Positions 3,516-29,341 of a stretch of DNA of 36,719 nt are shown piece after piece. The position numbers and the translations under genes are program-made. Below the pieces are notes generated by a model, which was not told the DNA's origin, ran no database searches, and worked only from the letters and a program-made list of their open reading frames with translations. Where the stretch lies: NCBI GenBank assembly GCA_049619235.1, contig JBMZMP010000001.1:1-36719 (forward strand), in the 5' to 3' direction. Every line of letters starts with the position of its first letter. Position 1 is the first letter of the stretch. This DNA comes from Thermoplasmatota archaeon (lineage in GTDB: Archaea; Thermoplasmatota; E2; JACPAO01; JAHFTW01).

Positions 3516-3560
3516 GCCCCCAACGAAATCCCTTTCCTTTGATTGAGTCCAATAACATGC

Positions 3561-4731: not shown

Positions 4732-6291
4732 ATGACGGACCCCATTGCCGCCCTTCGCGAACGCAAAGCCAAAGCCATGCAAGGCGGCGGCGCAGCACGC
4801 ATCGAAGCCCAGCACAAGAAAGGCAAATACACGGCGCGCGAACGCCTCGATTTGCTCCTTGACAAGGACTCCTTCGTGGAAATGGATCCATTCGTCCGCC
4901 ACCAAGCCAAACACTTCGGCATGGACAAAATGCAATTCGACGGCGACGGCGTCGTCACCGGGCACGGCACCGTCAAAGGCCGCCTCGTCTTCGTGTACAG
5001 TCAAGACTTCACCGTCCTTGGCGGCAGCCTCGGCAACGCCACCGGCAAAAAAATTGCCAAAGTCATCGAGCAAGCCATCAGTTGCGGAGCCCCCGTCATT
5101 GGGTTCAACGACTCCGGCGGCGCCCGCATCCAAGAAGGCGTCGCAAGCCTCGCCGGATACGGTGACATCTTCTTCAACAACGTCAAAGCAAGCGGCGTCA
5201 TCCCACAAATCTCCGTCATCGTGGGACCCTCCGCAGGCGGCGCCGTGTACAGCCCCGCCCTCACCGACTTCACCATCATGACCCAAGACACGAGCCACAT
5301 GTTCGTCACCGGTCCAGACGTGGTGAAAACCGTCACGGGGGAACAAGCCACGCAGGAAGAACTCGGCGGCGCAAGCGTCCACGAAGTCAAATCCGGCGTC
5401 GCCAGTTTCAGCGGCCTCGACGAGGACGAAACCATCGAAATGATTCGCACCCTCCTCGAATACCTCCCCAGCAACAACCTCGCAGACCTCCCAATTAAAG
5501 ACACCGGGGATGAACGGGGCCGCATGGACGAAGACATCCAAAACATCGTCCCACGCGAACCCAACAAACCCTACGACGTCCGGGAAGTGGTCAACCGCGT
5601 CATGGACCTCGGATCCTTCTTCGAAATCCAACCAAAATGGGCACAAAACATCGTCGTCGGCTTTGCCCGCCTCGACGGCATCCCCGTCGGCGTGGTTGCA
5701 AACCAACCCGCCGTCCTCGCAGGTGCCCTCGACATTGAAGCCAGCATCAAGGGCGCGAAATTCATTCGCTTCTGCGACTCCTTCAACATCCCACTCATCA
5801 CCATGGTGGACGTGCCCGGCTTCCTGCCCGGCATGGGCCAAGAACACGGCGGCATCATCCGAAACGGCGCCAAACTCCTGTACGCATACTGTGAAGCCAC
5901 CGTGCCCAAACTGCAAGTGGTGCTCCGCAAGTCCTACGGTGGCGCCTACATCGTCATGAGCAGCAAGCACGTAGGAAGCGACCTCAACCTCGCCTGGCCA
6001 GGCACCGAAATCGCCGTCATGGGAGCCGCCGGAGCCGTGGAAATCATCCACCGCCGGAAACTCCTCGCCCTCGCCGAAGAGGACCCGGAAGCAGCCGCGA
6101 AGATGAAAGCCGAATTCGAAGCCGAATACGCAGAGAAATTCAGCAACCCCTACGCCGCCGCGGAAATGGGTTGGGTGGACGACATCATCGAGCCACGGGA
6201 AACCCGCCCGCGCCTCATCGCTGCCCTCCTGCCGCTCCTCAACAAGCGCGAACAACGCCCCGCCAAGAAACACGGACTCACGCCACTTTAG
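4732..6291 (+). CDS. pccB: Acyl-CoA carboxylase carboxyltransferase subunit (PccB / 12S-type; acetyl/propionyl-CoA)
   Basis: 519 aa. Motifs seen: QHKKGKYTARERLDLLLD, FTVLGGSLG, GFNDSGGARIQEG, VIVGPSAGGAVYSPALTDF, ANQP..LAG.LD and GGAYIVM, which are typical of the carboxyltransferase beta subunit. Confidence 0.9.
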   Translation: MTDPIAALRERKAKAMQGGGAARIEAQHKKGKYTARERLDLLLDKDSFVEMDPFVRHQAKHFGMDKMQFDGDGVVTGHGTVKGRLVFVYSQDFTVLGGSLGNATGKKIAKVIEQAISCGAPVIGFNDSGGARIQEGVASLAGYGDIFFNNVKASGVIPQISVIVGPSAGGAVYSPALTDFTIMTQDTSHMFVTGPDVVKTVTGEQATQEELGGASVHEVKSGVASFSGLDEDETIEMIRTLLEYLPSNNLADLPIKDTGDERGRMDEDIQNIVPREPNKPYDVREVVNRVMDLGSFFEIQPKWAQNIVVGFARLDGIPVGVVANQPAVLAGALDIEASIKGAKFIRFCDSFNIPLITMVDVPGFLPGMGQEHGGIIRNGAKLLYAYCEATVPKLQVVLRKSYGGAYIVMSSKHVGSDLNLAWPGTEIAVMGAAGAVEIIHRRKLLALAEEDPEAAAKMKAEFEAEYAEKFSNPYAAAEMGWVDDIIEPRETRPRLIAALLPLLNKREQRPAKKHGLTPL

Positions 6292-6299
6292 GTGCCCCC

Positions 6300-9200
6300 A
6301 TGACCAAAGAACCCATTGCAATCATCGGCACCGGTTGCGTCCTCCCAGACGCCCCCGACGTTGCCACATTCTGGAACAACCTCCTCGCGGGCAAAAGCAG
6401 CATCACCGAGGTGCCCCGCGAACGCTGGGACCCCACCCTCTACCACTCCGACGACAAAACACTCCCCGACATGACGTACACCAAAATCGGTGGCTTCGTC
6501 GCAGACGACGCGTTCAACGGCATCGACTACCGCATGCCGCCAAAAGTCGTGGACCAAATCGACCCCTGCCAACGCTGGGCCCTCGCCGCAACCCGGCAAG
6601 CGTTCCAAAACGCAGGTTACGCAACCGGCCTCAAGGGCGACGAAGGGAAGGCATTCGACCGCGACCGCTGCGCAGTGATCGTCGGGAACGCAATGGGTGG
6701 CGAAGTGCAAAAAGCGGTCAGCAAGCGGGTGTACTGGGCCGAAGCAGAAGCAGCCATCCGAGCCGACTCCAAGTTCCAAACCCTTCCCCAGGAAGCCCAG
6801 GACGAAATCCTCTCGCGGGCACAAGCTGAATTCAAAGCCACAACCAACCCCATCACCGAAGACACCTTGCCCGGCCACCTCAGCAACGTGGTCGCCGGCC
6901 GCATCGCCAACGCCTTCGATTTGGGTGGCAAAAACTTCACCACGGACGCCGCTTGCGCAAGCAGCTTCGCAGCCCTCGACGCTGCGGTCAAAACACTGCG
7001 CGACCAAGACAGCGACCTCGTCATCTGGGGCGGCACCGACCGCTCCATGGATGTCACGGCCTACATCCAATTCAGCAAAATTGGGGCCCTCAGTCCCGAC
7101 GGCAGCCGCCCCTTCGATGAAGGCGCAAACGGCTTCGTCATGGGCGAAGGATGTGCCATGTTCCTCCTCAAGCGCCTCAGCGACGCGGAACGGGACGGCG
7201 ACAACATCATCGCCACCATTCGCGGCATCGGAAGCAGCAGCGACGGCAAAGGGAAAGGCATCACCGCCCCCAACCCCAGTGGCCAAGTGAAAGCAGTCGA
7301 ACGCGCCTACAAAGACGCCGGCGTGGACCCCGCCACCATTGGCTACATGGAAGCCCACGGCACCAGCACCCCCGTCGGTGACCCCGTGGAACTGGAATCC
7401 GCCAGCAAAGGCATCAGTGCCACCACCACGCAAACCATCGCCCCCGGCAGCATCCGCGTGGGGAGCGTCAAGAGCAACATCGGCCACCTCAAGGCAGCAG
7501 CCGGCGCCGCCGGCGTCCTGAAGGCCGCCCTGGCCCTCAAAGAAGGGGTCCTTCCGCCAAGCATCAACGTCAAGACCCTCAACCCCCGCATTGACTGGGA
7601 AAACAGCGTCTTCAAAGTGCAAACCACGCAAGAAGGCTGGGTCCAAGAAGGCCCACGACGCGCCGCCGTCAGCAGCTTCGGCTTTGGCGGCACCAACTTC
7701 CACGTGGTCCTCGAGCAACACGTCCCCGGCGCATGGCAAGCCCCCGTGGCAACGCAAGCGGTCGCCGAAACCCGCACCGAGTTGGACCTTGCAGGGTTTC
7801 AAGCAGGCTTCAACGCCAGCCTCGAACCAGAAGCGGTCGTCCTAAGCTCCGCACAAGCCGCAAGCCTCGACCTCCAAACCACAAACTTCGCGGAAACTGG
7901 CACCGGCGCACGTCTCCGGGACCAACTGCACCCGCTCACCAAAGAAGGGGTTGCTGCAAACGAACGAGTCGCATTCCACGTGGCCGACGTGGCTGAGATT
8001 CCAAAGAAACTTGGACTCGCCCAGAAAGCCATGGAAAACCCCGCCGCAGCCCGCCTTGCCTTCAACCAAGGCGTCTTCCTCGGACGCGGTGCGCCAGAAG
8101 GCAAAGTGGCGTTCCTGTTCCCCGGACAAGGCACCCAGTACGTCAACATGGGCCGCGACCTCGCCGAAAAATACGAGATCGTCCGCAAAACCTTCGAAGA
8201 AGCCGATGAGGCACTCTTCGACGACATCGGCGGCAAACTCACTGACATTCTCTGGCCCACACCCAACACGGAAGAAAACCAAAAGGCCAGCAACGAGAAA
8301 CTCAAACTCACCGAATACACGCAACCCGCGGTTCTCGCAATGGACCTTGCCTGCCTGCGCCTGTTGCAAAGCTGGGGCATCAAGCCCGACATGGTCGCCG
8401 GGCACAGCCTCGGCGAATACGGTGCCCTCATGGCAGCCGGTGTGTTGAGCCTCAAAGACGCCCTACATGCAGTCGCTGCCCGCGGTCGCGAAATGGCAAA
8501 CGTGGACCTCCCGGACCTTGGCAAAATGGCCAGCATCAGCGCCGACTGGCACGACGTGCAAGGGTTCCTGGACGGCGTGGACGGCTACGTCATCCCCGCC
8601 AACAAGAACTGCCCAAGCCAAACCGTCATCGCAGGCAGCACCGAAGGCGTCGAGAACGCCGTCGCCAAAATCAGTGAAGCCGGCATCCAAACCATGTTCC
8701 TGCCGGTGAGCGCCGCGTTCCACAGTGAAATCGTCGCCCCCGCCAGCGGACCGCTTCGCAAAGTGCTCGGGCGCCTCGACGTCCAATCCCCGAAAGTGCC
8801 CGTCATCACCAACGTTGGCGCTCGCTTGTACGAAGACGACCCGGAATGGATTCGGGACAACCTCGCCGTCCAAGTTGCAAGCCCCGTTGACTGGATTGAC
8901 ACCATTGAGAAAATGTACGCCGAGGGCGTTCGGTACTTCATCGAAGTGGGCCCCAAGCGCGCGCTCAGCGGCTTCGTGATGGACATCCTGAAAGACAAAC
9001 AAGACGTCCGCGCCATGTTCGCCAACCACCCCAAGAAAGGTGGCATTCAATCCTTGAACGAAATGTACGCCTTCCTCGGCGCCAGCGGATTTGCACCCCA
9101 AGTGCACGCCCTCGATGACGCGGACGTATACACCAAATCGTTCCTCGACCCAGTGGCTGCATTCACGAAGGAAGTGGCCGTTGCTGCTCAGCCCCCCATC

Positions 9201-12200
9201 ACGGCACCCGCAAGCAACGACCCCCGAACCGAAGTCATAGCAAATGCCCTCACCGAATTGAACGCCACGCTCGCCTCCATGAACGGAGTCACCGCTGCGC
9301 CGCAAGCCGCGACTGGCACCGTGGACAGCCAACTGCAAGCCAAACTGGACGCGTACGGCATTTGCCTCGACGACATCACCATCAGCGGCGCAGCCGTCGG
9401 ACTCCCCGGCGGACAACTGTTTGGCGAAGACAACTGGGACCGCATCCTACGAGGCGACAACCTCATCAGCGAAGTGCCCGAGCCGCACCGAGCCGGCATG
9501 GTGGACCGAAACATCGTTCGCCTCGTCAAAGGCAGCGACGGACAAGCCACGTTCCAATCCATCCAAGACATGGCGCAAGTGATTCACCTCGCTGGGCGCC
9601 GCGGCGGATTCGACCTCGCGGAATGGGGCATCGACATGGCCGACGTGTTGGACAAAACCAGCCAGTACGCCATGGCAGCCGGACTCGAAACACTGCGCGA
9701 CGCAGGCATTCCCCTGCAACGCACGTACATGCAAACCAGCACCGGCAGCTTCCTTCCAAAAGAATGGAAACTCCCCGAGCCCCTGCGTGACGGCACCGGC
9801 ATCATCTTCGCCAGTGCATTCCCCGGGTACGACAACCTCATTGACGAAATCAGCCGCCACCTCGCGGACAAATACGCCGGTGCCAGCCTCGACCGGCTGC
9901 AAGCGTTGTACGAAGAACTCGGAGGCGTCGTCTCGGACGACGAGCAAAAAGAGCGACTGACGAAGCTGTTCGACGAAGAATTCGAACGCCTGCAAGCAGT
10001 CCTCCCCGATCAAGGAGCAGCGCGGTACGAATTCAACCGAAAATTCCTCTTCACCGTCCTCAGCATGGGGCACAGCCAACTGGCACAACTCATTGGAGCC
10101 CGTGGCCCCAACACGCAAGTGAACGCCGCCTGCGCCAGCACCACGCAAGCCATCGGCATCGCCGAAGACTGGATTCGCACCGGCCGCGCCCGCCGCGTCC
10201 TCGTGGTTGGCGCAGATGACGCCACCAGCGACAACATGCTCCCATGGATTGGCAGCGGGTTCCTCGCAAGCGGAGCCGCCACCACCAAACGCAACGTGGC
10301 CGACGCCGCATTGCCCTTCGACGCCCGCCGCCACGGCATGATCATCGGCATGGGAGCCGTCGGCGTCCTCGTGGAAGCCGCTCCCGAAGTGGAAGCCCGC
10401 GGCATGCGACCCATTGCCAACTTGCTCGCCACCAAGGTCAGCAACTCCGCATTCCACGGCAGCCGCCTCGACATCGAACACATCGCCAGCGAAATGCAAG
10501 CGTTGGTCGGCAAGGCCTTGGCCACCCGACGCGCCACTGGCCGAGCGGCCAACGGCGAAACCGCGGAGAGCCTCGCGGCATCCACGGTCTTCATGTCCCA
10601 CGAAACCTACACGCCCGCTCGCGGCGGAAGCGCCGCAGCAGAAATCCACGCACTCCGTGCCACCTTCGGCGCCGGCGCAGACAGGGTCGTCATCGCCAAC
10701 ACCAAGGGCTTCACCGGCCACCCGCAAGGCGCGGGCATCGAAGACGCAGTCGTCCTCAAGTGTCTGCAACGAGGCCAAGTGCCACCCATTCCGAACCTCA
10801 AGGAACCGGACGCGGAACTCGGCAACCTCAACCTCAGCAAAGGCGGCAACTACGACATTCGGTACGGACTACGTCTTGCCGCTGGATTTGGAAGCCAAGT
10901 GGCCATGACCTTCACGGAATTGGTCGCCCGCGAGAACGAACGCTTCGCCAACCAAGCCCAATACGATGCCTGGCTCGCAAGCGTCAGCGGCATGCCAAGC
11001 GCCGTCGTGGAAACCGTGCATCGTACGCTCCGCATCGTGGACCAAGGCGCCCCCGAACGGGTGGCCCCTGCCGCAAAGCCGGAACCAGTTGCGGTGCAAA
11101 CACCAACGACGCCGGCCGTCCCCGCCGTGGACGCGCTTCCGACGGTCATCGACCTTGTGGCCAAGAAAACGGGATACCCCGTGGAAATGCTGGAACCCGA
11201 CCTCGACCTTGAAGCGGACCTTGGCATTGACACCGTGAAGCAAGCAGAACTGTTTGGCGAACTGCGCGAACATTTCGGTGTACCCTTGAGTGACGACTTG
11301 AAACTCAGTGACTACAACACGCTCCGCAAAGTGGCTGATTACATGGGCGGCGGAAACGGTGCCAGCGCACAGCCTGCGGCTGCCCCTGCCACCACCACTT
11401 CTACCGCCCCCAATGTGACGGTTCCAACGCCTCAACCTGTTGACCCCGCCGCGTCCGCGCCTTCTGCGGATGTGCTTGCAACCGTCACCGCCATGATTGC
11501 CGAAAAGACCGGCTACCCACCAGAAATGCTCGAGCCCGCACTTGATCTCGAAGCGGACCTCGGCATTGACACGGTCAAGCAAGCCGAGCTCTTTGGCGAA
11601 CTGCGCGAACACTTCGGCATTCCCCTCAGCGACGACCTCAAGCTTAGCGACTACAACACCTTGGAGAAAGTGGCAGCGTACATGGGAGGCGGCAATGCCG
11701 CACCGACACCCGCAACGCCTCCTCCCGCCGCAACGCCCACCCTCGCCCCAATTGTTGGGGCACAAAGCCCCGCGGCGCCAGCTGGGGACGTTCTTGCCAA
11801 AGTGACCGCCGTCGTAGCCGAAAAAACCGGCTACCCCGCGGAAATGCTCGAAGCGGACCTGGACCTCGAAGCGGACCTGGGCATTGACACCGTCAAGCAA
11901 GCGGAACTCTTCGGGGAACTGCGGGAAATGTTCGGCGTCTCCCTCAGCGAGGACTTGAGCCTCGCCGATTACAACACGCTCCGCAAAGTCGCATCCTACA
12001 TGTCCGGTGGTGCCGGCACCGAAACGGCCGCAAGTGCTCCCCCCACTCCCGCCGTGGCGCCTGCTCAACCAGGCGCGGAAACGGCTCCGGCGGCGGATGC
12101 GGGCGACGTGCTTGCCAAAGTCACCGCCGTGGTGGCTGAGAAAACCGGCTACCCCGTCGAGATGCTCGAACCTGCATTGGACCTTGAAGCGGATCTCGGC

Positions 12201-15200
12201 ATTGACACGGTCAAACAAGCAGAGCTCTTTGGCGAACTCCGGGAAATGTTCGGAGTCCCCCTGAGCGAAGACCTGAGCCTCGCCGACTACAACACTCTCG
12301 AAAAAGTGGCGGGCTACATGGCCGCCGGTGGAGCCTCCGCTACAAACACTGCCACCGAAGCGGCCGTTGAACAAGCAACCGAGGCTGCACCTTCCGGCAT
12401 CCAACGGTTGGTCCCCTTCGCCCGCCCACAAGCATGCGAAGAAGACAACCACCTGCCACAAGGACAACTCCTCGTGGTGGGCGACGCGGACACGGAATTC
12501 ATGGACGCCTGGAAGGCCGCCGGGTTCAAACCCACCATGCACCACGCGGACGCACCCGTGGGCATCCTGTGCCTCGCAACCCGCCCCGGCGAAAACGCCC
12601 ACACGCGGGCAGCGGCACTCTTCGAAGCCGCCAAAGCCAACCCCAACGCCTTCGTGGTCGTTGCCACCGCACAAGACGGAAGCCACGGGCTCCGCAAACC
12701 TCGTGACGCCGGCATGGCCGCAGTTTCAGGGCTTGGAAAAGCATTGAACAAGGAACTCCAAGGGCTCGTCAAGGTCATCGACGTGGACCCCGCCGACCGC
12801 GACGGACCCAAGCGCGTGGTGCAAGAAGCCATGCACGGCGGATTGCGCTGCGAAGTGTGCTTCGACCGCAACGGCAACCGCTGCGTCGTTGAAGTGGCTC
12901 CGGAAAGCCAACAAGGCACCCCCGACGTCGCCGGCAAAACGCTCGTCGTCAGCGGAGGCGCACAAGGCATCACCGCTGAACTGCTACTCCAACTCGCGCC
13001 GCAACACCCGAACCTCGTACTCCTTGGCCGCACACCGCTCCCACGGGAAGTGGCAGACTGGGCCAACTGGACCGACGAGCAATGGCGCGCCGAAGAACTC
13101 CGCGTCCTGGAAGAACTGAAAGCGAGTGGCGAAAAAGCCACCCCTGTGATGGTCAAGAAGCGCGTGGACCCCATGCGAAAAGCCGTGGAAGTGCAACGAA
13201 ACATCACCTCCATGCAAGCAGCCGGAGCCACCGTTTCCTACGCCGCAGTGGACGTCACGGACGCCGCCGGCGTCGCACAAGTGGTGTCCGAAGCCCGAGA
13301 CAAATTCGGCTCCATTGACGGCGTCATTCACGCCGCCGGCATGGAAATCAGCAAATTCCTCGCCGACAAACCACGGGAACAATTCGACCTCGTGTTTGGC
13401 ATCAAACACGATGGTATGAACGCCCTCGTGGCCGCCACGGAACAGGACGACCTGTCCATCCTCGCGGCCTTCGGAAGCGTTGCCGGACGGTTTGGAAACA
13501 TCGGCCAAGTGGACTACTCCGCCGCCAACGAATACCTCTGCAAAGAAGTCAAGCGCGTTGCACAAGCCCGCGGCATCCCCGCGGCATTCACCATCGCGTG
13601 GGGCCCCTGGGGGGAAGTGGGCATGGCAACCCGCGGCGGCATCATGACAGTCCTCAAGGAAAGCGGCGTCACACCCATCCCGACTGCAGACGGCATTGCG
13701 GCGTTCATGAACGAACTCGGCACGCCCGGGGTTCGCGAAAGCGTCGTGTGCGGAGAGATTGGAGGACTGGACGCGGACGGCCAAGTGGTCGCACACGTCT
13801 GGGACCCAGCCGTTGCGGAAGCAGAAAGCTGGCTGCAAACCGCCCCCGATCGGTTCAGGCTCCTGGACTCCATCGAAGCCATCAACACGGAACGCATCGT
13901 TGCCCGGTTGGTCATGGACCGCGTCAAGGACCCATACCTGATGGACCACGCCATTGACGGCGTGCCCCTCCTGCCCGGCGTCTTCGGTCTTGAAGCGTTT
14001 GCAGAAGCAAGCCGCCTCCTGGTCCCAGAAGACCTCGACTTCATCGGCGCCGAAGCGGTGCGATTTGCCGCGCCACTCAAGCAACACAAAGACACCCCCG
14101 TGACCGCGCGCATCGAAGCCCTGGTCTTGGAGCGAGGCGAAGAGACAAAGGTGCGATGCCAACTGACAAGCCAATTCGTCGGCCCAGACGGCCGCCCACT
14201 CGGCGAACCCAAACTGCACTTCGAAGCGGTGACCCGCTTCGGCACTGGACGCACCATGCGCACCGGAGACGTTCCCGTCTCGGATCGAAGCCGCACCAAC
14301 GTCTACCCGCCATTCTTCCACGGACCCAGCTTCCAAGTGCTCCCCGCAGCCGGGCCGCTTGGCGAGGAATCCATTGGCGAATTTGTCTTCCCCGAAGCTC
14401 CCTGCTTCGCCGACGGCAACGCCACGTTCCTCAGCCACCCCCTCGTGACGGAGGCCCTGTTCCAACTCTGCGGTCTCCGCACCATGGACGTGGACCAACG
14501 CATGAGCCTCCCCGCCGCCATCGAACGCATCGACGTATTCCCCGGCGCCACGGGACACGGCCGGCTCTGGTCCGCCTACAAGGGCAAGGAAGATTTGCAC
14601 CAATTCGACGCGGCCGCCTGCACCGATGACGGCACAGTCCTCATCCGAATGGTGGGCTACCAAATGATTGAAACTGGCCCCATCGCAGACAGCGAACCCG
14701 CGGAGCCAGAAGGTGCAACGGATCCGGCCCCAGCGCCGTCCGAACCGGCCCTACCCGAACCACCGGCCCACGTGCATCTACCAGACGTGGAAGGACTCAT
14801 GTTCCAGTGGGAGCCGGTCAAAGACGCACCGCTCAACGACTGGTTCTCCGCCGCGGAAAAGGAAACCCACGCCGGATTCAAAACCAGCAAGCGCGCCGCC
14901 GAATGGCGCGCCGGCCGCATCGCCGCCAAACGCGCCGTCGCAGCCAGCACAGGGGCCCCACACAACGAAATCGAACTCCGAGCCAACGACGCAGGCGCAC
15001 CCAGTCTTTACGTCCGTGGGAAACCAAGCCCTGTCCGCGTCAGCATCACGCACCGCGACGGCGTTGCCATCGCCGCCTTTGGAAACGACGCCATCGGCAT
15101 CGACTTGGAAACCGTCGAACCCCGCAGCGAACCGTTCTGGGAACAAGCCTTCGGAGCCGACGAACGACGACACCTTGGTGCCATGGCCAACAAGGACGTG

Positions 15201-15413
15201 GCCGCAGCGTGTGCCTGGGCCGCGAAGGAAGCCTGCCTGAAGCGGGTTGGAACCGGCCTCGATTGTGCCCTGCACGACTTGGTGGTTCGCCCCGAAGGCG
15301 GCGGCGCGCACGTCTCTGGACCGTTCGGCCAATGGTACGTCCGCTTCTGGGACCTTGATGGCCGCGTTCTCGCCGTGACCACGCCCCAATTTGATGTGCA
15401 GGTGAACGCATAG
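6300..15413 (+). CDS. Iterative type I polyketide / PUFA-synthase-like megasynthase, 3037 aa: KS-AT-KS-ACPx4-KR-DH-PPTase
   Basis: ORF 6171-15413 was trimmed to ATG 6300 (MTKEPIAIIGTGCVLPDA...), 8 nt after the pccB stop and preceded by AGGTG (6290-6294). The domain motifs are listed in the sub-features below. The stop TAG (15411-15413) overlaps the GTG start of bioY. Confidence 0.9.
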   Translation: MTKEPIAIIGTGCVLPDAPDVATFWNNLLAGKSSITEVPRERWDPTLYHSDDKTLPDMTYTKIGGFVADDAFNGIDYRMPPKVVDQIDPCQRWALAATRQAFQNAGYATGLKGDEGKAFDRDRCAVIVGNAMGGEVQKAVSKRVYWAEAEAAIRADSKFQTLPQEAQDEILSRAQAEFKATTNPITEDTLPGHLSNVVAGRIANAFDLGGKNFTTDAACASSFAALDAAVKTLRDQDSDLVIWGGTDRSMDVTAYIQFSKIGALSPDGSRPFDEGANGFVMGEGCAMFLLKRLSDAERDGDNIIATIRGIGSSSDGKGKGITAPNPSGQVKAVERAYKDAGVDPATIGYMEAHGTSTPVGDPVELESASKGISATTTQTIAPGSIRVGSVKSNIGHLKAAAGAAGVLKAALALKEGVLPPSINVKTLNPRIDWENSVFKVQTTQEGWVQEGPRRAAVSSFGFGGTNFHVVLEQHVPGAWQAPVATQAVAETRTELDLAGFQAGFNASLEPEAVVLSSAQAASLDLQTTNFAETGTGARLRDQLHPLTKEGVAANERVAFHVADVAEIPKKLGLAQKAMENPAAARLAFNQGVFLGRGAPEGKVAFLFPGQGTQYVNMGRDLAEKYEIVRKTFEEADEALFDDIGGKLTDILWPTPNTEENQKASNEKLKLTEYTQPAVLAMDLACLRLLQSWGIKPDMVAGHSLGEYGALMAAGVLSLKDALHAVAARGREMANVDLPDLGKMASISADWHDVQGFLDGVDGYVIPANKNCPSQTVIAGSTEGVENAVAKISEAGIQTMFLPVSAAFHSEIVAPASGPLRKVLGRLDVQSPKVPVITNVGARLYEDDPEWIRDNLAVQVASPVDWIDTIEKMYAEGVRYFIEVGPKRALSGFVMDILKDKQDVRAMFANHPKKGGIQSLNEMYAFLGASGFAPQVHALDDADVYTKSFLDPVAAFTKEVAVAAQPPITAPASNDPRTEVIANALTELNATLASMNGVTAAPQAATGTVDSQLQAKLDAYGICLDDITISGAAVGLPGGQLFGEDNWDRILRGDNLISEVPEPHRAGMVDRNIVRLVKGSDGQATFQSIQDMAQVIHLAGRRGGFDLAEWGIDMADVLDKTSQYAMAAGLETLRDAGIPLQRTYMQTSTGSFLPKEWKLPEPLRDGTGIIFASAFPGYDNLIDEISRHLADKYAGASLDRLQALYEELGGVVSDDEQKERLTKLFDEEFERLQAVLPDQGAARYEFNRKFLFTVLSMGHSQLAQLIGARGPNTQVNAACASTTQAIGIAEDWIRTGRARRVLVVGADDATSDNMLPWIGSGFLASGAATTKRNVADAALPFDARRHGMIIGMGAVGVLVEAAPEVEARGMRPIANLLATKVSNSAFHGSRLDIEHIASEMQALVGKALATRRATGRAANGETAESLAASTVFMSHETYTPARGGSAAAEIHALRATFGAGADRVVIANTKGFTGHPQGAGIEDAVVLKCLQRGQVPPIPNLKEPDAELGNLNLSKGGNYDIRYGLRLAAGFGSQVAMTFTELVARENERFANQAQYDAWLASVSGMPSAVVETVHRTLRIVDQGAPERVAPAAKPEPVAVQTPTTPAVPAVDALPTVIDLVAKKTGYPVEMLEPDLDLEADLGIDTVKQAELFGELREHFGVPLSDDLKLSDYNTLRKVADYMGGGNGASAQPAAAPATTTSTAPNVTVPTPQPVDPAASAPSADVLATVTAMIAEKTGYPPEMLEPALDLEADLGIDTVKQAELFGELREHFGIPLSDDLKLSDYNTLEKVAAYMGGGNAAPTPATPPPAATPTLAPIVGAQSPAAPAGDVLAKVTAVVAEKTGYPAEMLEADLDLEADLGIDTVKQAELFGELREMFGVSLSEDLSLADYNTLRKVASYMSGGAGTETAASAPPTPAVAPAQPGAETAPAADAGDVLAKVTAVVAEKTGYPVEMLEPALDLEADLGIDTVKQAELFGELREMFGVPLSEDLSLADYNTLEKVAGYMAAGGASATNTATEAAVEQATEAAPSGIQRLVPFARPQACEEDNHLPQGQLLVVGDADTEFMDAWKAAGFKPTMHHADAPVGILCLATRPGENAHTRAAALFEAAKANPNAFVVVATAQDGSHGLRKPRDAGMAAVSGLGKALNKELQGLVKVIDVDPADRDGPKRVVQEAMHGGLRCEVCFDRNGNRCVVEVAPESQQGTPDVAGKTLVVSGGAQGITAELLLQLAPQHPNLVLLGRTPLPREVADWANWTDEQWRAEELRVLEELKASGEKATPVMVKKRVDPMRKAVEVQRNITSMQAAGATVSYAAVDVTDAAGVAQVVSEARDKFGSIDGVIHAAGMEISKFLADKPREQFDLVFGIKHDGMNALVAATEQDDLSILAAFGSVAGRFGNIGQVDYSAANEYLCKEVKRVAQARGIPAAFTIAWGPWGEVGMATRGGIMTVLKESGVTPIPTADGIAAFMNELGTPGVRESVVCGEIGGLDADGQVVAHVWDPAVAEAESWLQTAPDRFRLLDSIEAINTERIVARLVMDRVKDPYLMDHAIDGVPLLPGVFGLEAFAEASRLLVPEDLDFIGAEAVRFAAPLKQHKDTPVTARIEALVLERGEETKVRCQLTSQFVGPDGRPLGEPKLHFEAVTRFGTGRTMRTGDVPVSDRSRTNVYPPFFHGPSFQVLPAAGPLGEESIGEFVFPEAPCFADGNATFLSHPLVTEALFQLCGLRTMDVDQRMSLPAAIERIDVFPGATGHGRLWSAYKGKEDLHQFDAAACTDDGTVLIRMVGYQMIETGPIADSEPAEPEGATDPAPAPSEPALPEPPAHVHLPDVEGLMFQWEPVKDAPLNDWFSAAEKETHAGFKTSKRAAEWRAGRIAAKRAVAASTGAPHNEIELRANDAGAPSLYVRGKPSPVRVSITHRDGVAIAAFGNDAIGIDLETVEPRSEPFWEQAFGADERRHLGAMANKDVAAACAWAAKEACLKRVGTGLDCALHDLVVRPEGGGAHVSGPFGQWYVRFWDLDGRVLAVTTPQFDVQVNA
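6309..7722 (+). other. Domain: ketosynthase 1 (approximate bounds)
   Basis: TTDAACASSFAALD (Cys codon 6954-6956), EAHGTSTPVGDP, KSNIGHLKAAAGAAG and FGFGGTNFHVVLEQH give an intact Cys-His-His triad. Confidence 0.85.
8103..9030 (+). other. Domain: acyltransferase (malonyl-type; approximate bounds)
   Basis: Motifs seen: FLFPGQGTQYVNMG, VAGHSLGEYGALMAAG (Ser codon 8406-8408), TEYTQPAVLA and PVSAAFHSEIV. Confidence 0.8.
9375..10925 (+). other. Domain: divergent second ketosynthase with retained active-site Cys (approximate bounds)
   Basis: ITISGAAVGLPGG at the N-terminus, NAACASTTQAIGIAEDW (Cys codon 10131-10133), MSHETYTP (His), NTKGFTGHPQGAGIED (His) and GFGSQVAMTF. A long helical insertion (RHLADKYAG...ARYEFNRKF) precedes the Cys. 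Confidence 0.7.
11133..12320 (+). repeat. Four tandem in-frame ACP-like carrier domains (11133-11345, 11466-11684, 11784-12002, 12102-12320) separated by Ala/Pro/Thr-rich linkers
   Basis: Each unit reads (V/L)A(K/T)VTA.(V/I)AEKTGYP.EMLE..LDLEADLGIDTVKQAELFGELRE.FG..LS.DL.L.DYNTL.KVA.YM. Unit spacing is 339, 318 and 318 nt. The position normally held by the phosphopantetheinyl-Ser is Thr in all four units (codons 11232-11234 ACC, 11571-11573 ACG, 11889-11891 ACC, 12207-12209 ACG). Confidence 0.85.
12400..13730 (+). other. Domain: ketoreductase with N-terminal structural subdomain (approximate bounds)
   Basis: Motifs seen: KTLVVSGGAQGITAELLLQL (Rossmann fold), DGVIHAAGM and FGSVAGRFGNIGQVDYSAANEYL (Tyr codon 13515-13517). 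Confidence 0.8.
13850..14670 (+). other. Domain: PKS-type double-hotdog dehydratase (approximate bounds)
   Basis: LMDHAIDGVPLLPGV matches HxxxGxxxxP (His codon 13947-13949). FFHGPSFQ resembles YGPxF, and HPLVTEALFQL resembles D/ExxxQ. Confidence 0.7.
14800..15410 (+). other. Domain: C-terminal Sfp/EntD-like 4'-phosphopantetheinyl transferase (approximate bounds)
   Basis: Motifs seen: EWRAGRIAAKRAV, VRVSITHRDGVAIAAF, AIGIDLETVE (Asp codon 15102-15104) and AWAAKEACLKRVG (Lys-Glu codons 15225-15230). These are the metal-binding and W/FxxKEAxxK motifs of PPTases. Confidence 0.7.
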
Positions 15414-16213
15414 TGGAGTACCGATTCGGAAACCTCGAGCAAACGCTCACCGGCTGGCCCACCCGGCTCCTCGCAAGCGCAGGCTTCGCAGGCATCCTCT
15501 CCCTCCTCGCCCTCATCAGTTTCCCCCTCCCCTGGACCCCGGTCCCCTTCTCCATGATGCCCCTGGGACTTCTCCTCGCAGGCGCATACCAGCGCCCGCT
15601 GTGGGGCTTCCTCTCCGTCGCCATGTACCTCGTGGCCGCAGGCATCGGCGCACCGATCTTTGCGGACGGGGAATCTGGCTGGAGCTGGTTCCTCGGCGCA
15701 AGCGGCGGCTACCTGTTCGGTTTCCTCCTCGTTTCGCCGCTCGTCGGTTGGTACATGCGGGAACGACGCGGCATGCTCCCCACCAAGTGGGTCGCCTTTG
15801 TCATCAGCGCGTTCACGCTCGCCGTCCTCGGTGGCCTCGGCGCCATCATTTGGATGACCACCACCGGAAGCAGCATCAGCAGCCTCGACGGAGACACGCA
15901 AAACTGGAACATGGGCCGTAGCACCCTCTGGGTTCTCCTGTTCCTCATCGTCGCCATGACCGCCCTGACGCTCACGTTCCTGCGCCGATACCGGCAACAA
16001 AGCCAAGAAGCGCTGAACCTGTTTCTTGTCATGATGGGCGCCATCATTGTGCTCCACACCTGCGGCGTCCTGGTCCTCTGGATGGCCACCTCCCTCACAT
16101 TCATGGAGGCATTGTTGCTTGGAAGCCTCGTCTTCTTACCCTTCGATGTACTCAAAAGCGGCCTCGCCGTCGCCCTCTCTCTGCCCTTCGTCCCCCCGGT
16201 GAACCATGACTGA
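15413..16213 (+). CDS. bioY: Biotin transporter BioY (solitary S-component)
   Basis: The GTG start shares one base with the megasynthase stop. Sequence PVPFSMMPLGLLLAGAYQRPLWGFLSVAMYLVAAGIGAPIFADG...GASGGYLFGFLL...FLPFDVLKSGLAVAL matches the BioY pattern. At 266 aa it is longer than usual, with a central insertion. Confidence 0.75.
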   Translation: MEYRFGNLEQTLTGWPTRLLASAGFAGILSLLALISFPLPWTPVPFSMMPLGLLLAGAYQRPLWGFLSVAMYLVAAGIGAPIFADGESGWSWFLGASGGYLFGFLLVSPLVGWYMRERRGMLPTKWVAFVISAFTLAVLGGLGAIIWMTTTGSSISSLDGDTQNWNMGRSTLWVLLFLIVAMTALTLTFLRRYRQQSQEALNLFLVMMGAIIVLHTCGVLVLWMATSLTFMEALLLGSLVFLPFDVLKSGLAVALSLPFVPPVNHD

Positions 16214-17774
16214 CATCAACAAAATTCTCGTTGCCAACCGCGGCGAAATCGCCCTTCGCGTAATGCGAACCGCCCGCGAACTCGGAATTGCAACCGTCGC
16301 CGTCCACAGCCCCGTGGACGCCAAGGCTGCCCACGTGCGCTTCGCCGACGAAGCCGTGGATCTTGGCGGCGACGCCGCATCCGAGAACTACCTCAACATC
16401 GACAAATTGGTCGAAGTTTGCAGCGACCACGGCGTGGACGCCGTGCACCCCGGCTACGGTTTCCTCAGCGAACGAGACGACTTCGTGGACGCACTTAGCA
16501 AAGCCAACGTCACATTCATCGGCCCACCCGCAAGCGCCATCCGAATCCTTGGGGACAAAGTGGCCAGCAAGGAAGCGGCCCGCAAGGCCGGCGTGCCCGT
16601 GGTTCCCGGCCTTGACAAATTCATCAACACCGTGGACGAGGCGAAGGAAGTGGCGGAGCTCACCGGTTACCCGCTCATCATCAAAGCCGCATTCGGTGGC
16701 GGCGGCATGGGCATGCTCGTGGTGGAGAAAGAGGAAGACCTGGAAGCTTCCCTCATCGCCACGCAACGGCAAGCCAAAGCCGCCTTTGGCCGCGGCGAAG
16801 TGTTCATTGAGAAATTCATTGGGCGCCCCCGTCACATCGAATTCCAAATGGTTGCTGACCAACACGGCCACGCCGTGCACTTCGGGGAACGGGAATGCAG
16901 CATCCAACGCCGCCACCAGAAACTCATCGAAGAAGCGCCAAGCCCCATTGTCACGGAAGAGGAACGGCAAGAAGTTGGTGGCAGCGTCGCCAAATTGCTC
17001 ATCGACGTGGGCTACACCAACGCGGGCACCGCTGAATTCCTGTACGAAGATGGCAACTTCTTCTTCAACGAAGTCAACACCCGCCTGCAAGTGGAACACC
17101 CTGTCACGGAGCAGGTGTACGGCATGGACCTCGTGGCGGAGCAAATCCGCATCGCCCGCGGCGAGGAACTCGGCTACGACCAAGCATGGGTGAATGCCCG
17201 CAAGCGCGGCTGGAGCATCGAGTGCCGCATCAACGCCGAGGACCCCGCGCAGAACTTCATGCCCACCCCAAGCCTCGTCAAGCGACACAACCCCCCCATG
17301 GGCAGCGGCATCCGCTTGGACACGTTCCTCTACCCCGGATTCCAAGTGCCAGCCATTTACGACTCCATGGTCGCCAAACTGATCACCACCGGCAGCGACC
17401 GCGCCGAAGCCATTCGCAAAATGGAACGCGCCCTCGACGAATACGACCTCGGAGACATGACCACCAACAAGGAACTCCACGCGCTCCTCATGCGCAACGA
17501 ACATTTCCGCGCCGGTGACATGACCACGAAGTTCCTCGACGAACACGGCATCATTGACCAATACCTCGGCAACCAAGCCGGCGCAAGCGACGCAGCAAAG
17601 CGCCGCCTCGCTGCCATCGCCGCGGTGCTGGCCGAACAACCCGGCGGCATCGACGCCATGGTTGCAAAGAACTACGGGTTCAAGGCTGGCGTGGGCGTGG
17701 ACGAACACGGCCGCAGAAAGCTCAACGCATGGGGCCAACGGTCTCGCGGCGAAAGCAACGGAAGGTGGGCCTAA
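16206..17774 (+). CDS. accC: Biotin carboxylase subunit of acyl-CoA carboxylase
   Basis: 522 aa. Motifs seen: ILVANRGEIALRVMRTARELGI, HPGYGFLSE, YPLIIKAAFGGGGMGM, HIEFQMVADQHG, ERECSIQRRHQKLIEE and EVNTRLQVEHPVTE. The start overlaps the bioY stop by 8 nt, and GGTGA (16198-16202) lies upstream. Confidence 0.92.
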   Translation: MTDINKILVANRGEIALRVMRTARELGIATVAVHSPVDAKAAHVRFADEAVDLGGDAASENYLNIDKLVEVCSDHGVDAVHPGYGFLSERDDFVDALSKANVTFIGPPASAIRILGDKVASKEAARKAGVPVVPGLDKFINTVDEAKEVAELTGYPLIIKAAFGGGGMGMLVVEKEEDLEASLIATQRQAKAAFGRGEVFIEKFIGRPRHIEFQMVADQHGHAVHFGERECSIQRRHQKLIEEAPSPIVTEEERQEVGGSVAKLLIDVGYTNAGTAEFLYEDGNFFFNEVNTRLQVEHPVTEQVYGMDLVAEQIRIARGEELGYDQAWVNARKRGWSIECRINAEDPAQNFMPTPSLVKRHNPPMGSGIRLDTFLYPGFQVPAIYDSMVAKLITTGSDRAEAIRKMERALDEYDLGDMTTNKELHALLMRNEHFRAGDMTTKFLDEHGIIDQYLGNQAGASDAAKRRLAAIAAVLAEQPGGIDAMVAKNYGFKAGVGVDEHGRRKLNAWGQRSRGESNGRWA

Positions 17775-18277
17775 TGCGGTACGCATTCCGACTGGGGCAA
17801 CACACCCACAAATTGACGCGCCAAGAACGCGCCGAGGGGCCCCTGTACAAGATTGAAGAATCCGAGTACGAACCCGCTGTGGAAGCCAAAGGCAACGGCA
17901 GCTACCGCGTGGTCGTGGACGATCAAGTCTTCGAGTTCTCCCTAAAAGACGGTGTCCTCTACGAAGGCGCCAGCCCACTGGACTTGGAAATTAGCCGCGC
18001 CAAGCCGGAACTGATTCGCGCCGGCGGCAAAGGCCGCAAAGGCGACGGACGCATCAAACCCCCGATGCCGGGCAAGATTGTGGAAGTGCCAGTCAAGGAA
18101 GGTGACGAAGTCCAAGAGGGCCAAGTGGTCATCATCTTGGAAGCCATGAAGATGCAAAACGACATCAAGGCGCCCTTCGGAGGCATCGTCCAAAAGGTGC
18201 ACGTGCAGGAAGGTTCGAACGTGGAAGCAACCACCGTCATGGTAGACATTGCTCCCCACGCGGAGCCCGAAGCATGA
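17774..18277 (+). CDS. accB: Biotin carboxyl carrier protein (biotinyl domain)
   Basis: ORF 17729-18277 was trimmed to ATG 17774, which overlaps the accC stop (TAATG). The C-terminus PMPGKIVEVPVKEGDEVQEGQVVIILEAMKMQNDIKAPFGGIVQKVHV carries the EAMKM biotinylation motif. Confidence 0.8.
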   Translation: MRYAFRLGQHTHKLTRQERAEGPLYKIEESEYEPAVEAKGNGSYRVVVDDQVFEFSLKDGVLYEGASPLDLEISRAKPELIRAGGKGRKGDGRIKPPMPGKIVEVPVKEGDEVQEGQVVIILEAMKMQNDIKAPFGGIVQKVHVQEGSNVEATTVMVDIAPHAEPEA

Positions 18278-19038
18278 GTGTGGACGTCGCCATCGAAGGC
18301 CGCGTGGCCACCATCACCATCAACCGCCCCGAGGCGCTCAACGCCCTCAACAGTGCAACCCTCGACGCCATCGGCGCGGCGGCGCTGGATCTACGGGACA
18401 AAGTGGACGGCATTCTTCTCACCGGTGCCGGCAAGGCCTTCGTGGCCGGTGCCGACATCGCCGAAATGAAGGACTATGGCCAGGAAGAAGCCGAAGCCTT
18501 CAGCCGGCGCGGCCAAGAGGCCTTCCAAAATCTCTCCGAATTCCCCGGCCCCGTGGTCGTTGCCATCAACGGATTCGCCCTCGGCGGCGGACTGGAATTG
18601 GCCCTCTCGGGGGACATCCTCGTTGCAAGCAACCGCGCCAAACTAGGTCTCCCTGAAACCACGCTTGCAGTGGTCCCTGGCTTCGGCGGAACGCAGCGCT
18701 TGCCCCGCCGCGTGGGCCCAGGCAATGCCAAGAAACTCTTGTTCACGGGCGGCATGATTGGCGCCGAAGAGGCGCTCCGTATGGGCCTCGTGGACGAAGT
18801 GGTGGAACCAGATGAACTGCTGGAAACCTGCCAAGGAATTTTGCAAAAGGCCCTCGCCAATGGACCCCTTGCGGTTCGGCAAGTGAAGCGCCTCGTGGAC
18901 GTTGGCTCGGACATGGAGCTCCTCGACGCCATCGACATGGAAGCAGACGCATTCGGCGACATCTTCACCACTGAGGATCAAAAGGAAGGAATGGAAGCGT
19001 TCCTTTCCAAGCGGAAGCCGGATTTCACTGGCAATTAG
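18274..19038 (+). CDS. Enoyl-CoA hydratase (crotonase family)
   Basis: 254 aa. Motifs seen: ITINRPEALNAL, LTGAGKAFVAGADI, INGFALGGGLELAL and LGLPETTLAVVPGFGGTQRL, with both catalytic Glu positions present. ATGA overlap with accB. Confidence 0.88.
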   Translation: MSVDVAIEGRVATITINRPEALNALNSATLDAIGAAALDLRDKVDGILLTGAGKAFVAGADIAEMKDYGQEEAEAFSRRGQEAFQNLSEFPGPVVVAINGFALGGGLELALSGDILVASNRAKLGLPETTLAVVPGFGGTQRLPRRVGPGNAKKLLFTGGMIGAEEALRMGLVDEVVEPDELLETCQGILQKALANGPLAVRQVKRLVDVGSDMELLDAIDMEADAFGDIFTTEDQKEGMEAFLSKRKPDFTGN

Positions 19039-28902: not shown

Positions 28903-28936
28903 GATGGGCAGGTAGACATCATGTCTTCGTATAGTT

Positions 28937-29321: not shown

Positions 29322-29341
29322 TCAGACCAAGATGGCACAGC

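What the first reader, a model, noticed from the sequence alone, without database searches (positions are those of the whole stretch)
6300..15413. Non-canonical domain order KS-AT-KS-ACPx4-KR-DH-PPTase mixes PUFA-synthase and enediyne-PKSE features
Seen in sequence: KS1 has C/H/H intact (Cys codon 6954). The AT has GHSLGE and AAFHS. A second KS retains its active-site Cys (NAACAST, codon 10131) and both His residues (SHETYTP, FTGHPQGAG), and carries a long helical insert before the Cys. Four tandem ACPs, a KR, an HxxxGxxxxP dehydratase and a terminal PPTase follow. Established knowledge: PfaA-type subunits are KS-MAT-ACPn-KR(-DH). PfaC supplies KS-CLF, where the CLF lacks the Cys. Enediyne PKSE is KS-AT-ACP-KR-DH-PPTase. 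Inference: this single polypeptide combines the tandem ACPs of PUFA synthases with the integrated PPTase of PKSE, and adds a second, apparently catalytic KS between AT and the ACPs. I do not recognise this layout from a described family.
Basis: partly seen in the sequence, partly recalled or inferred. Interest (0 to 1): 0.72.

Follow-up and report, generated by a model that had tools for sequence, protein, structure and literature searches.

The report
Archaeal two-ketosynthase lipid megasynthase operon
A 3037-residue fatty-acid/polyketide-type megasynthase with two working chain-extending domains sits in a malonyl-CoA-supply operon of a Thermoplasmatota archaeon. It belongs to a widespread family catalogued in 2011 whose product is still unknown, and whose carrier domains have threonine where every textbook carrier has serine.

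Summary

The layout is not undescribed. It matches the "Type R" secondary-lipid synthase of Shulse & Allen 2011 (KS-MAT-"CLF"-ACP3-6-KR plus PPTase, sometimes linked to acetyl-CoA carboxylase genes). The family is large: at least 579 metagenome relatives and 592 clusters at 50% identity. The fused PPTase is common in it, and the PKSE resemblance is superficial.

Its Cys/His/Lys/His are invariant in 122/122 sequences, and its predicted fold is FabF-like.

What I added:
- The host is an archaeon (Thermoplasmatota).
- The gene lies in a tight operon: carboxyltransferase, synthase, BioY, biotin carboxylase, BCCP, enoyl-CoA hydratase.
- All carrier domains carry Thr, not Ser, at the phosphopantetheine site (228/228 in related loci).
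- There is no enoyl reductase here. Many bacterial relatives fuse a PfaD-type ER, or carry an acyl-CoA dehydrogenase/ETF module directly upstream.

I found no report of the product. Rating: a new member of a known but uncharacterised kind, of moderate interest.

The parts
4732..6291 (+). Acyl-CoA carboxylase carboxyltransferase subunit, first gene of the operon
   Evidence: Pfam Carboxyl_trans 646.8 bits. It is 81% identical to the gene in the same position in the Thermoplasmatota locus L001. It ends 8 nt before the synthase start.
6300..15413 (+). 3037-aa megasynthase KS1-AT-KS2-ACPx4-KR-DH-PPTase (Type R-like PfaA homolog)
   Evidence: ORF, translation. Pfam. TIGR02813 PfaA 1067.1 bits against a cutoff of 1010.1. 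Codon-position GC is 0.69/0.48/0.72, typical of coding sequence here.
6309..7724 (+). KS1, a PfaA-type ketosynthase (Cys219 at nt 6954, His353, His396)
   Evidence: Pfam ketoacyl-synt, Ketoacyl-synt_C and KAsynt_C_assoc. Motifs. The only PDB match covering its whole N-terminus is 6riw (aa 4-474).
8112..9011 (+). Acyltransferase, predicted malonyl-specific (GHSLGE Ser703; AAFHS)
   Evidence: Pfam Acyl_transf_1 159 bits. TIGR00128 FabD 234.8 bits. Motifs.
9369..10994 (+). KS2, a FabF-like second ketosynthase with an intact Cys1278/His1434/Lys1469/His1474 set
   Evidence: Pfam. In-register alignment to FabF. The four residues are invariant in 122/122 homologs. AlphaFold pLDDT 87.8. Best Foldseek matches are FabF, TM 0.82-0.88.
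9828..10001 (+). Two-helix insert in KS2 upstream of the active-site Cys (aa 1177-1234)
   Evidence: Helices H227-260 and H264-284 of the AlphaFold model. FabF has no counterpart in the phmmer alignment.
11127..12359 (+). Four tandem carrier domains, each DLGIDTVKQAELF, with Thr1645/1758/1864/1970 at the phosphopantetheine position (Thr codons at nt 11232, 11571, 11889, 12207)
   Evidence: Pfam PP-binding, 4 stretches. Alignment A2. The Thr aligns with the Ser of solved ACPs. The family-wide count is 228/228 Thr.
12939..13613 (+). Ketoreductase
   Evidence: Pfam KR 100.8-109.3 bits. PDB matches are PKS KR domains.
13884..14678 (+). PKS-type double-hotdog dehydratase (His2550 in HAIDGVPLLP)
   Evidence: Pfam PKS_DH_N and PS-DH. 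Motif.
14886..15410 (+). C-terminal Sfp-type phosphopantetheinyl transferase (GIDLE ... WAAKEACLK)
   Evidence: Pfam 4PPT_N 30.8 bits and ACPS 44 bits. Weak match to Sfp. Motifs are read from the translation.
15413..16213 (+). BioY biotin transporter component; its start overlaps the synthase stop codon
   Evidence: Pfam BioY 97.6 bits. The same gene sits in the same place in L001.
16206..17774 (+). Biotin carboxylase
   Evidence: Pfam Biotin_carb_N, CPSase_L_D2 and Biotin_carb_C. It lies downstream of the synthase in most related loci.
17729..18277 (+). Biotin carboxyl carrier protein
   Evidence: Pfam Biotin_lipoyl 71.4 bits. Conserved downstream of the biotin carboxylase in related loci.
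18274..19038 (+). Enoyl-CoA hydratase/crotonase family protein, last gene of the operon (4-nt overlap with BCCP). Its role in the pathway is unknown.
   Evidence: Pfam ECH_1 212.6 bits. NCBIfam short-chain enoyl-CoA hydratase, below cutoff. It is absent at this position in L001.

Best explanation
This is an archaeal member of the 'Type R' PfaA-like secondary-lipid synthase family. It is an iterative type I synthase, co-transcribed with its own malonyl-CoA supply.

**Proposed mechanism.**
1. The flanking carboxyltransferase, biotin carboxylase and BCCP make malonyl-CoA. BioY imports the biotin they need.
2. The C-terminal PPTase arms the four tandem carrier domains, apparently on Thr rather than Ser.
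3. The malonyl-specific AT loads the carriers.
4. Two catalytically competent ketosynthases extend the chain: KS1 (PfaA-type) and KS2 (FabF-like). They most likely divide the work by chain length, or between initiation and elongation, as the two KS of PUFA synthases do.
5. KR and the PKS-type DH process each beta-keto group to an enoyl.
6. No enoyl reductase and no release domain are encoded in cis. Either a trans ER acts, giving a long, largely saturated acyl chain, or the chain stays polyenoic.

**Shown:** domain content, intact catalytic motifs, operon structure, family membership, family size and archaeal host.

**Inferred:** division of labour between the two KS, Thr pantetheinylation, the product and the release step.
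For: **Domains and motifs.**

**KS2 is catalytic.**
- Its four catalytic residues are invariant in 122/122 sequences.
- It is FabF-like in sequence and in predicted structure.

**Operon.**
- The genes overlap or nearly abut: 6291/6300, 15413/15413, 16213/16206, 17774/17729 and 18277/18274.
- The same CT-synthase-BioY-BC-BCCP cassette occurs in a Thermoplasmatota MAG, with the synthase 59% identical over its full length including the PPTase.
- BC and BCCP follow the DH in most of the 80 metagenome loci, in an Ardenticatenaceae MAG and in Nonomuraea gerenzanensis.

**Match to the literature.** The family fits the Type R description, including the ACC link.

**Reduction is part of the family's chemistry.**
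- About 19 of 56 complete representatives carry an N-terminal NMO (PfaD/FabK-type) ER.
- 55 of 63 loci with enough upstream sequence have an acyl-CoA dehydrogenase about 93 nt upstream, and many of them also carry ETF alpha/beta and an Fe-S oxidoreductase further upstream.

**Release.** WS/DGAT acyltransferase genes lie in 13 loci and in Nonomuraea, which suggests ester-lipid products in those organisms.

**Precedent.** Two KS with different substrate ranges are described for PUFA synthases (PMC11962503, abstract).
Against: - No ER, thioesterase or acyltransferase for release was found in the 36.7-kb window, so the product cannot be deduced.
- The carrier Thr could mean the domains are modified inefficiently, or by unusual chemistry.
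- The enoyl-CoA hydratase is not conserved in L001, so its role is unclear.
- Nothing shows the operon is expressed.
- I found no biochemical work on any family member.
- The link to Type R rests on architecture and taxon overlap, not on direct comparison with the type-strain proteins.
Confidence: 0.7

Rival explanations
1. It is a polyene synthase that works like enediyne PKSE. With KR and DH but no ER, the iterative enzyme would make a conjugated polyene, armed by its integrated PPTase. In the archaeon the product could be a pigment or a hydrocarbon precursor.
For: The C-terminal order KR-DH-PPTase and the lack of any ER in cis or in the window. The archaeal clade lacks both the ACAD/ETF module and the fused NMO ER seen in bacterial relatives.
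Against: KS1-AT scores as PfaA. A second KS and four ACPs are not PKSE features. No PKSE-type thioesterase or enediyne cassette genes neighbour it. Many family members carry an ER, so the ancestral chemistry includes enoyl reduction. A dedicated ACC operon suggests bulk lipid flux.
Confidence: 0.15
2. It is the PfaA subunit of a canonical PUFA synthase. PfaB, PfaC and PfaD partners elsewhere in the genome would then complete a pathway to polyunsaturated fatty acids.
For: TIGR02813 PfaA scores above its curated cutoff. The tandem ACPs and KR-DH tail resemble PfaA.
Against: KS2 interrupts the PfaA order. No pfaB, pfaC or pfaD genes, and no FabA-type DH, are in the window or in L001. In 80 related loci the conserved neighbours are ACC and ACAD/ETF genes, not pfaBCD. 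The carriers have Thr rather than the PfaA-type Ser.
Confidence: 0.05
3. KS2 is a chain-length-factor-like partner, as the 2011 'CLF' label implies. It would pair with KS1 and set chain length, or only decarboxylate malonyl-ACP for priming, without condensing.
For: Shulse & Allen call the domain a CLF. KS1 and KS2 are very divergent, 28% identical over 107 aa, as KS/CLF pairs are. The helical insert could reshape the interface or the substrate tunnel.
Against: The Cys, both His and the Lys are strictly invariant across about 50%-identical homologs from many phyla. Defined CLFs lack the Cys. The fold is a complete FabF. Variants with an extra ACP between AT and KS2 look like two modules rather than one heterodimer.
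Confidence: 0.1

Closest known systems
Type R secondary lipid synthase (Shulse & Allen 2011, PLoS One 6:e20146)
   Same: A PfaA homolog with a second KS-like domain between MAT and the tandem ACPs, followed by KR. A PPTase is encoded with it. There is an acetyl-CoA carboxylase gene association. The taxonomic distribution is patchy and suggests horizontal transfer. No report of its product was found.
   Different: Here the PPTase is fused rather than a downstream gene, and the host is an archaeon. The full ACC set plus BioY flanks the gene. The domain labelled 'CLF' has an invariant catalytic Cys/His/Lys/His set. The 2011 paper does not mention the Thr carrier site.
PfaA of the canonical pfaABCDE PUFA synthase
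   Same: A PfaA-type KS-MAT (TIGR02813 above cutoff), tandem ACPs, KR and a PKS-type DH. It uses iterative logic with more than one active KS in the system.
   Different: The second KS is in cis, between AT and the ACPs, rather than in PfaC. There is no CLF, no FabA-type DH/isomerase and no PfaD ER in the locus. The carriers have Thr instead of Ser.
Enediyne polyketide synthase PKSE (SgcE/CalE8/DynE8)
   Same: An iterative KS-AT...KR-DH with an integrated C-terminal Sfp-type PPTase and no ER.
   Different: PKSE has one KS and one ACP, and it works with a dedicated thioesterase and the enediyne cassette. None of these apply here. The sequence affinity of KS1-AT is to PfaA.
FabF (KAS II) of type II fatty acid synthase
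   Same: KS2 has the FabF fold and the same catalytic residues in register.
   Different: KS2 is embedded in a megasynthase, carries a 58-residue two-helix insert, and has the motif SHETYTP where FabF has HGT(S/G)TP.

Membership tests
Type R secondary lipid synthase (Shulse & Allen 2011) | A single pfaA homolog with the order KS-MAT-second KS-like domain-ACP(3-6)-KR | tested here: met
   Pfam gives KS1, AT, a second ketoacyl-synt pair, 4 PP-binding domains and KR. The definition is quoted.
Type R secondary lipid synthase (Shulse & Allen 2011) | A PPTase encoded with the synthase | tested here: met
   4PPT_N + ACPS at aa 2863-3018, fused to the synthase. Related loci show both fused/adjacent PPTases and PPTases several kb further downstream.
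Type R secondary lipid synthase (Shulse & Allen 2011) | Association with acetyl-CoA carboxylase genes (reported for one member) | tested here: met
   CT lies upstream, and BioY, BC and BCCP lie downstream, in one operon. BC/BCCP are conserved in most related loci.
Type R secondary lipid synthase (Shulse & Allen 2011) | Homology to the type-strain proteins (Roseiflexus, Koribacter, Solibacter, Elusimicrobium) | tested here: inconclusive
   KS2 homologs at about 50% identity come from Roseiflexaceae, Acidobacteria/Bryobacteraceae and Elusimicrobia MAGs. The type-strain sequences themselves were not available for comparison.
PfaA subunit of canonical PUFA synthase | Scores above the curated cutoff of TIGR02813 | tested here: met
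   1067.1 bits against a cutoff of 1010.1.
PfaA subunit of canonical PUFA synthase | MAT followed directly by the tandem ACPs | tested here: not met
   A FabF-like KS of about 540 aa lies between AT and ACP1.
PfaA subunit of canonical PUFA synthase | Clustered pfaB/pfaC (KS-CLF-FabA-type DH) and pfaD (ER) partners | tested here: not met
   None among the annotated genes of the window or in L001. Only 36.7 kb of the genome is visible.
Enediyne PKSE | KS-AT-ACP-KR-DH-PPTase with a single KS and a single ACP | tested here: not met
   Two KS and four ACPs.
Enediyne PKSE | A neighbouring PKSE thioesterase and enediyne cassette genes | tested here: not met
   The neighbours are Suf, pilin, ACC, BioY, ECH, OapC, arginine and phosphate-transport genes.
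KS-CLF pair (PfaC, HglC/D, type II PKS) | The second domain lacks the active-site Cys | tested here: not met
   Cys1278 is present and invariant in 122/122 homologs, together with both His and the Lys.
KS-CLF pair (PfaC, HglC/D, type II PKS) | KS and its partner form a heterodimer | not testable with these tools
   Only single-chain prediction up to 1200 aa is available, and KS1 through KS2 spans 1565 aa.
Canonical phosphopantetheine carrier domain (PP-binding) | Ser at the start of helix II (GxDS) as the attachment site | tested here: not met
   All four domains read GIDT. The Thr aligns with the Ser of solved ACPs. Across related loci the count is 228/228 Thr.

The most novel reading that the evidence does not exclude
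The whole family, about 600 clusters at 50% identity, uses threonine-linked phosphopantetheine. A co-evolved PPTase, always encoded in cis or nearby, would make each cassette self-sufficient. That self-sufficiency, combined with its own ACC genes, would have allowed transfer into Thermoplasmatota archaea. There it would provide an ACP-dependent route to fatty-acyl or polyenoyl lipids in a domain of life generally thought to lack one.
Probability: 0.3. Interest if true: 0.8.

Novelty: new member of a known kind. Interest (0 to 1): 0.5.

Why it matters
**As a domain-order curiosity, the finding is largely explained.** The layout was catalogued in 2011 and is abundant in soil, peat and sediment metagenomes.

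**It still matters for three reasons.**
1. The family is large, and I found no study of its product.
2. The published 'CLF' label is wrong for this family. It has two catalytic ketosynthases in one chain, which makes it a compact model for how iterative synthases split work between KS domains.
3. Two features invite direct experiments:
   - a near-universal Thr at the carrier attachment site, a position where, to my knowledge, Ser is regarded as universal;
   - a complete ACC-plus-synthase-plus-PPTase cassette in an archaeon, which bears on whether some archaea make acyl lipids through carrier proteins.

Nonomuraea gerenzanensis, a cultured organism, offers a host for testing these.

Tried and rejected
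- **Literature.** Full-text searches did not find a characterised product, an archaeal report or any Thr-linked phosphopantetheine. Terms tried were the architecture strings, haloarchaea/Poseidoniales plus PKS, hglE-KS plus archaea, Marine Group II fatty acid synthesis, pfaA plus ACAD/ETF, and the Type R host names. Only Shulse & Allen 2011 was relevant.
- **A haloarchaeal host.** I considered this first because of OapC, the acidic proteins and 60% GC. I dropped it in favour of Thermoplasmatota.
- **Source contig.** An exact-sequence lookup of the window's carboxyltransferase found nothing.
- **SufS as a taxonomic marker.** It was uninformative beyond showing close unnamed relatives.
- **RNA genes.** tRNA and Rfam scans were empty.
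- **Tandem Repeats Finder.** It reported no repeat in the ACP region at the DNA level.
- **NCBIfam.** It has no model specific to KS2 or to the DH-PPTase tail.
- **First phylogeny attempt.** It timed out. The NJ tree has no support values.
- **KS1+KS2 chimera prediction.** Not attempted.
- **DH-motif regexes.** The second-motif patterns (HPxxx[D/E]xxx[Q/H] and YxxFHGPxF) matched almost nothing across the family, so they say nothing either way.
Full report
**1. What is in the sequence.**

The window holds one very long ORF on the + strand, 6171..15413. The upstream carboxyltransferase gene ends at 6291, so the ATG at 6300 is the sensible start. That gives a 3037-aa protein. Its codon-position GC (0.69/0.48/0.72) matches the other genes of the window, and its overall GC (0.61-0.64) is close to that of the flanks.

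Pfam finds these domains in order:
- KS1, aa 4-475;
- AT, aa 605-904;
- a second, divergent ketoacyl-synthase pair around aa 1000-1560;
- four PP-binding domains;
- KR, aa 2214-2438;
- a PKS-type DH, aa 2529-2793;
- a 4PPT_N + ACPS phosphopantetheinyl transferase, aa 2863-3018.

The four ACPs are 70-76% identical to each other.

**2. The second ketosynthase.**

Scanned alone, the region matches FabF-type enzymes best, in both NCBIfam and PDB sequence searches. The alignment puts Cys1278, His1434, Lys1469 and His1474 in register with the FabF catalytic residues.

These four residues are invariant in all 122 sequences: 121 database homologs at about 50% identity plus the query. An AlphaFold model built on 54 sequences is confident (mean pLDDT 87.8, pTM 0.86). 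Its best structural matches are FabF enzymes, covering the whole FabF chain at TM 0.82-0.88.

The 'helical insert' consists of two long helices at aa 1177-1234. KS1 and KS2 are only 28% identical over 107 residues, so KS2 is not a recent duplicate of KS1.

KS2 therefore has everything expected of a condensing enzyme. It is not a Cys-less chain length factor.

**3. The layout is a described and very common family.**

The KS2 region alone recovers:
- more than 840 proteins in the word-indexed database;
- 592 clusters at 50% identity with E<=1e-30 in the exhaustive search;

A tblastn survey of 80 metagenome loci using the window's own domains shows KS1-AT-KS2-ACP(1-5)-KR-DH in virtually every locus.

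Among 56 representative proteins that are complete from the N-terminus through DH (Pfam check of three of them):
- about 26 carry a C-terminal PPTase;
- about 19 carry an N-terminal NMO (PfaD/FabK-type) enoyl reductase;
- at least 15 have exactly the window's domain string.

Shulse & Allen 2011 (PMC3098273) defined this arrangement as 'Type R': a pfaA homolog KS-MAT-CLF-ACP(3-6)-KR with a PPTase gene. They found it in Koribacter, Solibacter, Elusimicrobium and Roseiflexus, with an ACC gene in one cluster and no known product. My hits include Roseiflexaceae, Acidobacteria/Bryobacteraceae and Elusimicrobia.

No later paper in the searchable library uses these architecture strings or reports a product. 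NCBIfam has no dedicated model.

The family is, however, only catalogued, and its 'CLF' label is contradicted by section 2. The PKSE resemblance is superficial. KS1-AT scores as PfaA (TIGR02813, 1067 bits against a cutoff of 1010), and no enediyne-associated genes are nearby.

**4. Genomic context and host.**

The synthase is the second gene of a tight operon:
- carboxyltransferase, 4732-6291;
- synthase, 6300-15413;
- BioY, 15413-16213;
- biotin carboxylase, 16206-17774;
- BCCP, 17729-18277;
- enoyl-CoA hydratase, 18274-19038.

The gene ends overlap or lie within 8 nt of each other. The rest of the window is housekeeping: Suf Fe-S assembly, arginine biosynthesis and phosphate transport.

Several lines point to a Thermoplasmatota archaeon:
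- The window carries an archaeal type IV pilin N-terminal domain protein (3543-4517). The Pfam score is marginal, 26.3 bits against a cutoff of 25.2.
- It carries an OapC origin-associated protein, 19082-19621 on the - strand.
- The named OapC homologs are from Thermoplasmatota. One lies on the same 350-kb Thermoplasmatota MAG contig that carries the closest full-length relative of the synthase.
- That locus, L001, has the same CT-synthase-BioY-BC-BCCP cassette. The synthase is 59% identical over 3207 aligned positions, PPTase included, but the outer flanks differ.
- A closer relative, with SufS 87% identical, has Suf-CT-synthase synteny. A sister contig encodes an Spt5-NGN protein.

In a rough NJ tree of KS2, the window groups with L001 and with the MAG proteins labelled Thermoplasmatota or Halobacteriales. 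Two unnamed representatives (P0242, P0243) sit close to it, and two more (P0256, P0259) join the wider ten-member clade. This clade stands apart from the bulk of bacterial sequences. The tree has no support values.

The simplest reading is a bacterial cassette acquired by, and then maintained in, a Thermoplasmatota lineage.

**5.

*(a) Thr at the carrier site.* All four carrier domains read DLGIDTVKQAELF. The Thr aligns with the phosphopantetheinylated Ser of solved ACPs such as PigH, PksA and S. aureus ACP.

The same holds elsewhere in the family:
- 228 of 228 carrier domains in the related loci have Thr.
- The scripted census of representative proteins gave 335 Thr, 11 Ser, 6 'E' and 4 unmatched, out of 356 domains. 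By eye, the 6 'E' rows also read DLG[IV]DTV, so about 341 of 356 have Thr.
- The Ser cases are confined to a few divergent proteins. That suggests the position needs a hydroxyl.

I found no paper on Thr-linked phosphopantetheine. From my own knowledge, the site is regarded as universally Ser, and an E. coli ACP S36T mutant is reported not to be modified by AcpS. A PPTase co-evolved to accept Thr would explain why one is always fused or encoded nearby. This is inference.

*(b) No enoyl reductase in the window.* Bacterial relatives supply candidates:
- a fused NMO-type ER;
- an acyl-CoA dehydrogenase a median 93 nt upstream, in 55 of 63 loci with enough flank. ETF-alpha, ETF-beta and a 700-aa Fe-S oxidoreductase were found further upstream in 35, 32 and 28 loci respectively.

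WS/DGAT-type acyltransferases (HHxxxDG) occur in 13 loci and in Nonomuraea. This hints at ester-lipid products and a release route in those organisms. The archaeal clade has none of these next to the synthase.

**6. How it most likely works.**

Shown:
- an intact set of KS, AT (malonyl-type motifs), ACP, KR, DH and PPTase domains;
- two KS domains, each with a full catalytic residue set;
- a dedicated ACC and biotin-uptake operon.

Inferred:
- The ACC makes malonyl-CoA and the PPTase arms the Thr carriers.
- The AT loads the carriers, and KS1 and KS2 share the elongation cycles. They may be specialised by chain length or for initiation, as reported for the two KS of PUFA synthases (PMC11962503, abstract).
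- Variants with an extra ACP between AT and KS2 (L005, L025 and several representatives) suggest a two-module origin: KS1-AT-ACP plus KS2-ACPn-KR-DH.
- KR and DH give enoyl intermediates. Saturation then depends on a trans ER that is not visible here.
- The product is probably a long acyl chain, or possibly a polyenoyl chain, destined for a lipid. Its identity and the release step are unknown.

**7. Verdict.**

The locus is a new, archaeal, PPTase-fused member of the known but uncharacterised Type R class. I rate interest as moderate (0.5). It is low for the domain order itself. It is raised by the archaeal host, by the correction of the 'CLF' label, and above all by the family-wide Thr carrier site, which is directly testable.

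Noticed in passing
window 11232, 11571, 11889, 12207 (Thr codons of the four ACPs); loci L001-L085: Every carrier domain has Thr instead of the canonical phosphopantetheinylated Ser (G[IV]DTVK). The count is 228/228 domains in related loci and about 341/356 in representative proteins. A few divergent members have Ser.
   Followed up: partly
L006-L085, L003 and L089: upstream of the synthase (e.g. L063 1290-6893): Most bacterial relatives carry a 559-aa acyl-CoA dehydrogenase about 93 nt upstream of the synthase (55 of 63 loci with enough flank). ETF-alpha, ETF-beta and an Fe-S oxidoreductase lie further upstream in 35, 32 and 28 loci. This is a candidate trans enoyl reductase or desaturase module. 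It is absent from the window, L001, L006, L016, L025, L049 and L005.
   Followed up: partly
P0245 (aa 101-267) and about 19 of 56 complete representatives: An N-terminal NMO (PfaD/FabK-type) enoyl reductase is fused to the same KS-AT-KS-ACP-KR-DH(-PPTase) chain. This gives an all-in-one reducing synthase.
   Followed up: partly
L005 10103-10333; L025 5834-6040; several representatives: Some family members have an extra Thr-type ACP between AT and KS2, which suggests a two-module ancestry.
   Followed up: no
L089 (Nonomuraea gerenzanensis NZ_LT559118.1, record 5987714-6013333); 13 metagenome loci: A cultured actinomycete carries WS/DGAT ... ACAD-KS1-AT-KS2-ACP(DLGVDTVK)-KR-DH-BC-BCCP ... PPTase. 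The stretch is unannotated in the PLSDB record, which files the 11.85-Mb replicon as a plasmid. The WS/DGAT genes hint at wax-ester or TAG-type products.
   Followed up: partly
L004 10001-11804 (Nostocoides australiense HG764815.1): A lone 601-aa KS2 fragment sits among unrelated genes and a transposase. It is apparently a relic of a decayed synthase gene.
   Followed up: no
window 3543-4517 versus L086 3450-3757: The pilin-like gene lies between the Suf genes and the carboxyltransferase in the window. It is missing at that position in a close relative (SufS 87% identical), which suggests a local insertion or deletion.
   Followed up: no
window 25632-27452 (-) and 26822-27832 (-): The 606-aa ArgJ ORF has its ArgJ domain only at aa 227-606, and its N-terminal part overlaps the ArgC ORF by about 630 nt. 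The true ArgJ start is probably internal, so the long ORF is likely an artefact of ORF calling.
   Followed up: no
window 27898-30201 (-): A 767-aa ORF combines a MazE/AbrB-type domain (aa 443-486) with a PhoU domain (aa 575-666), next to the phosphate ABC transporter genes.
   Followed up: no
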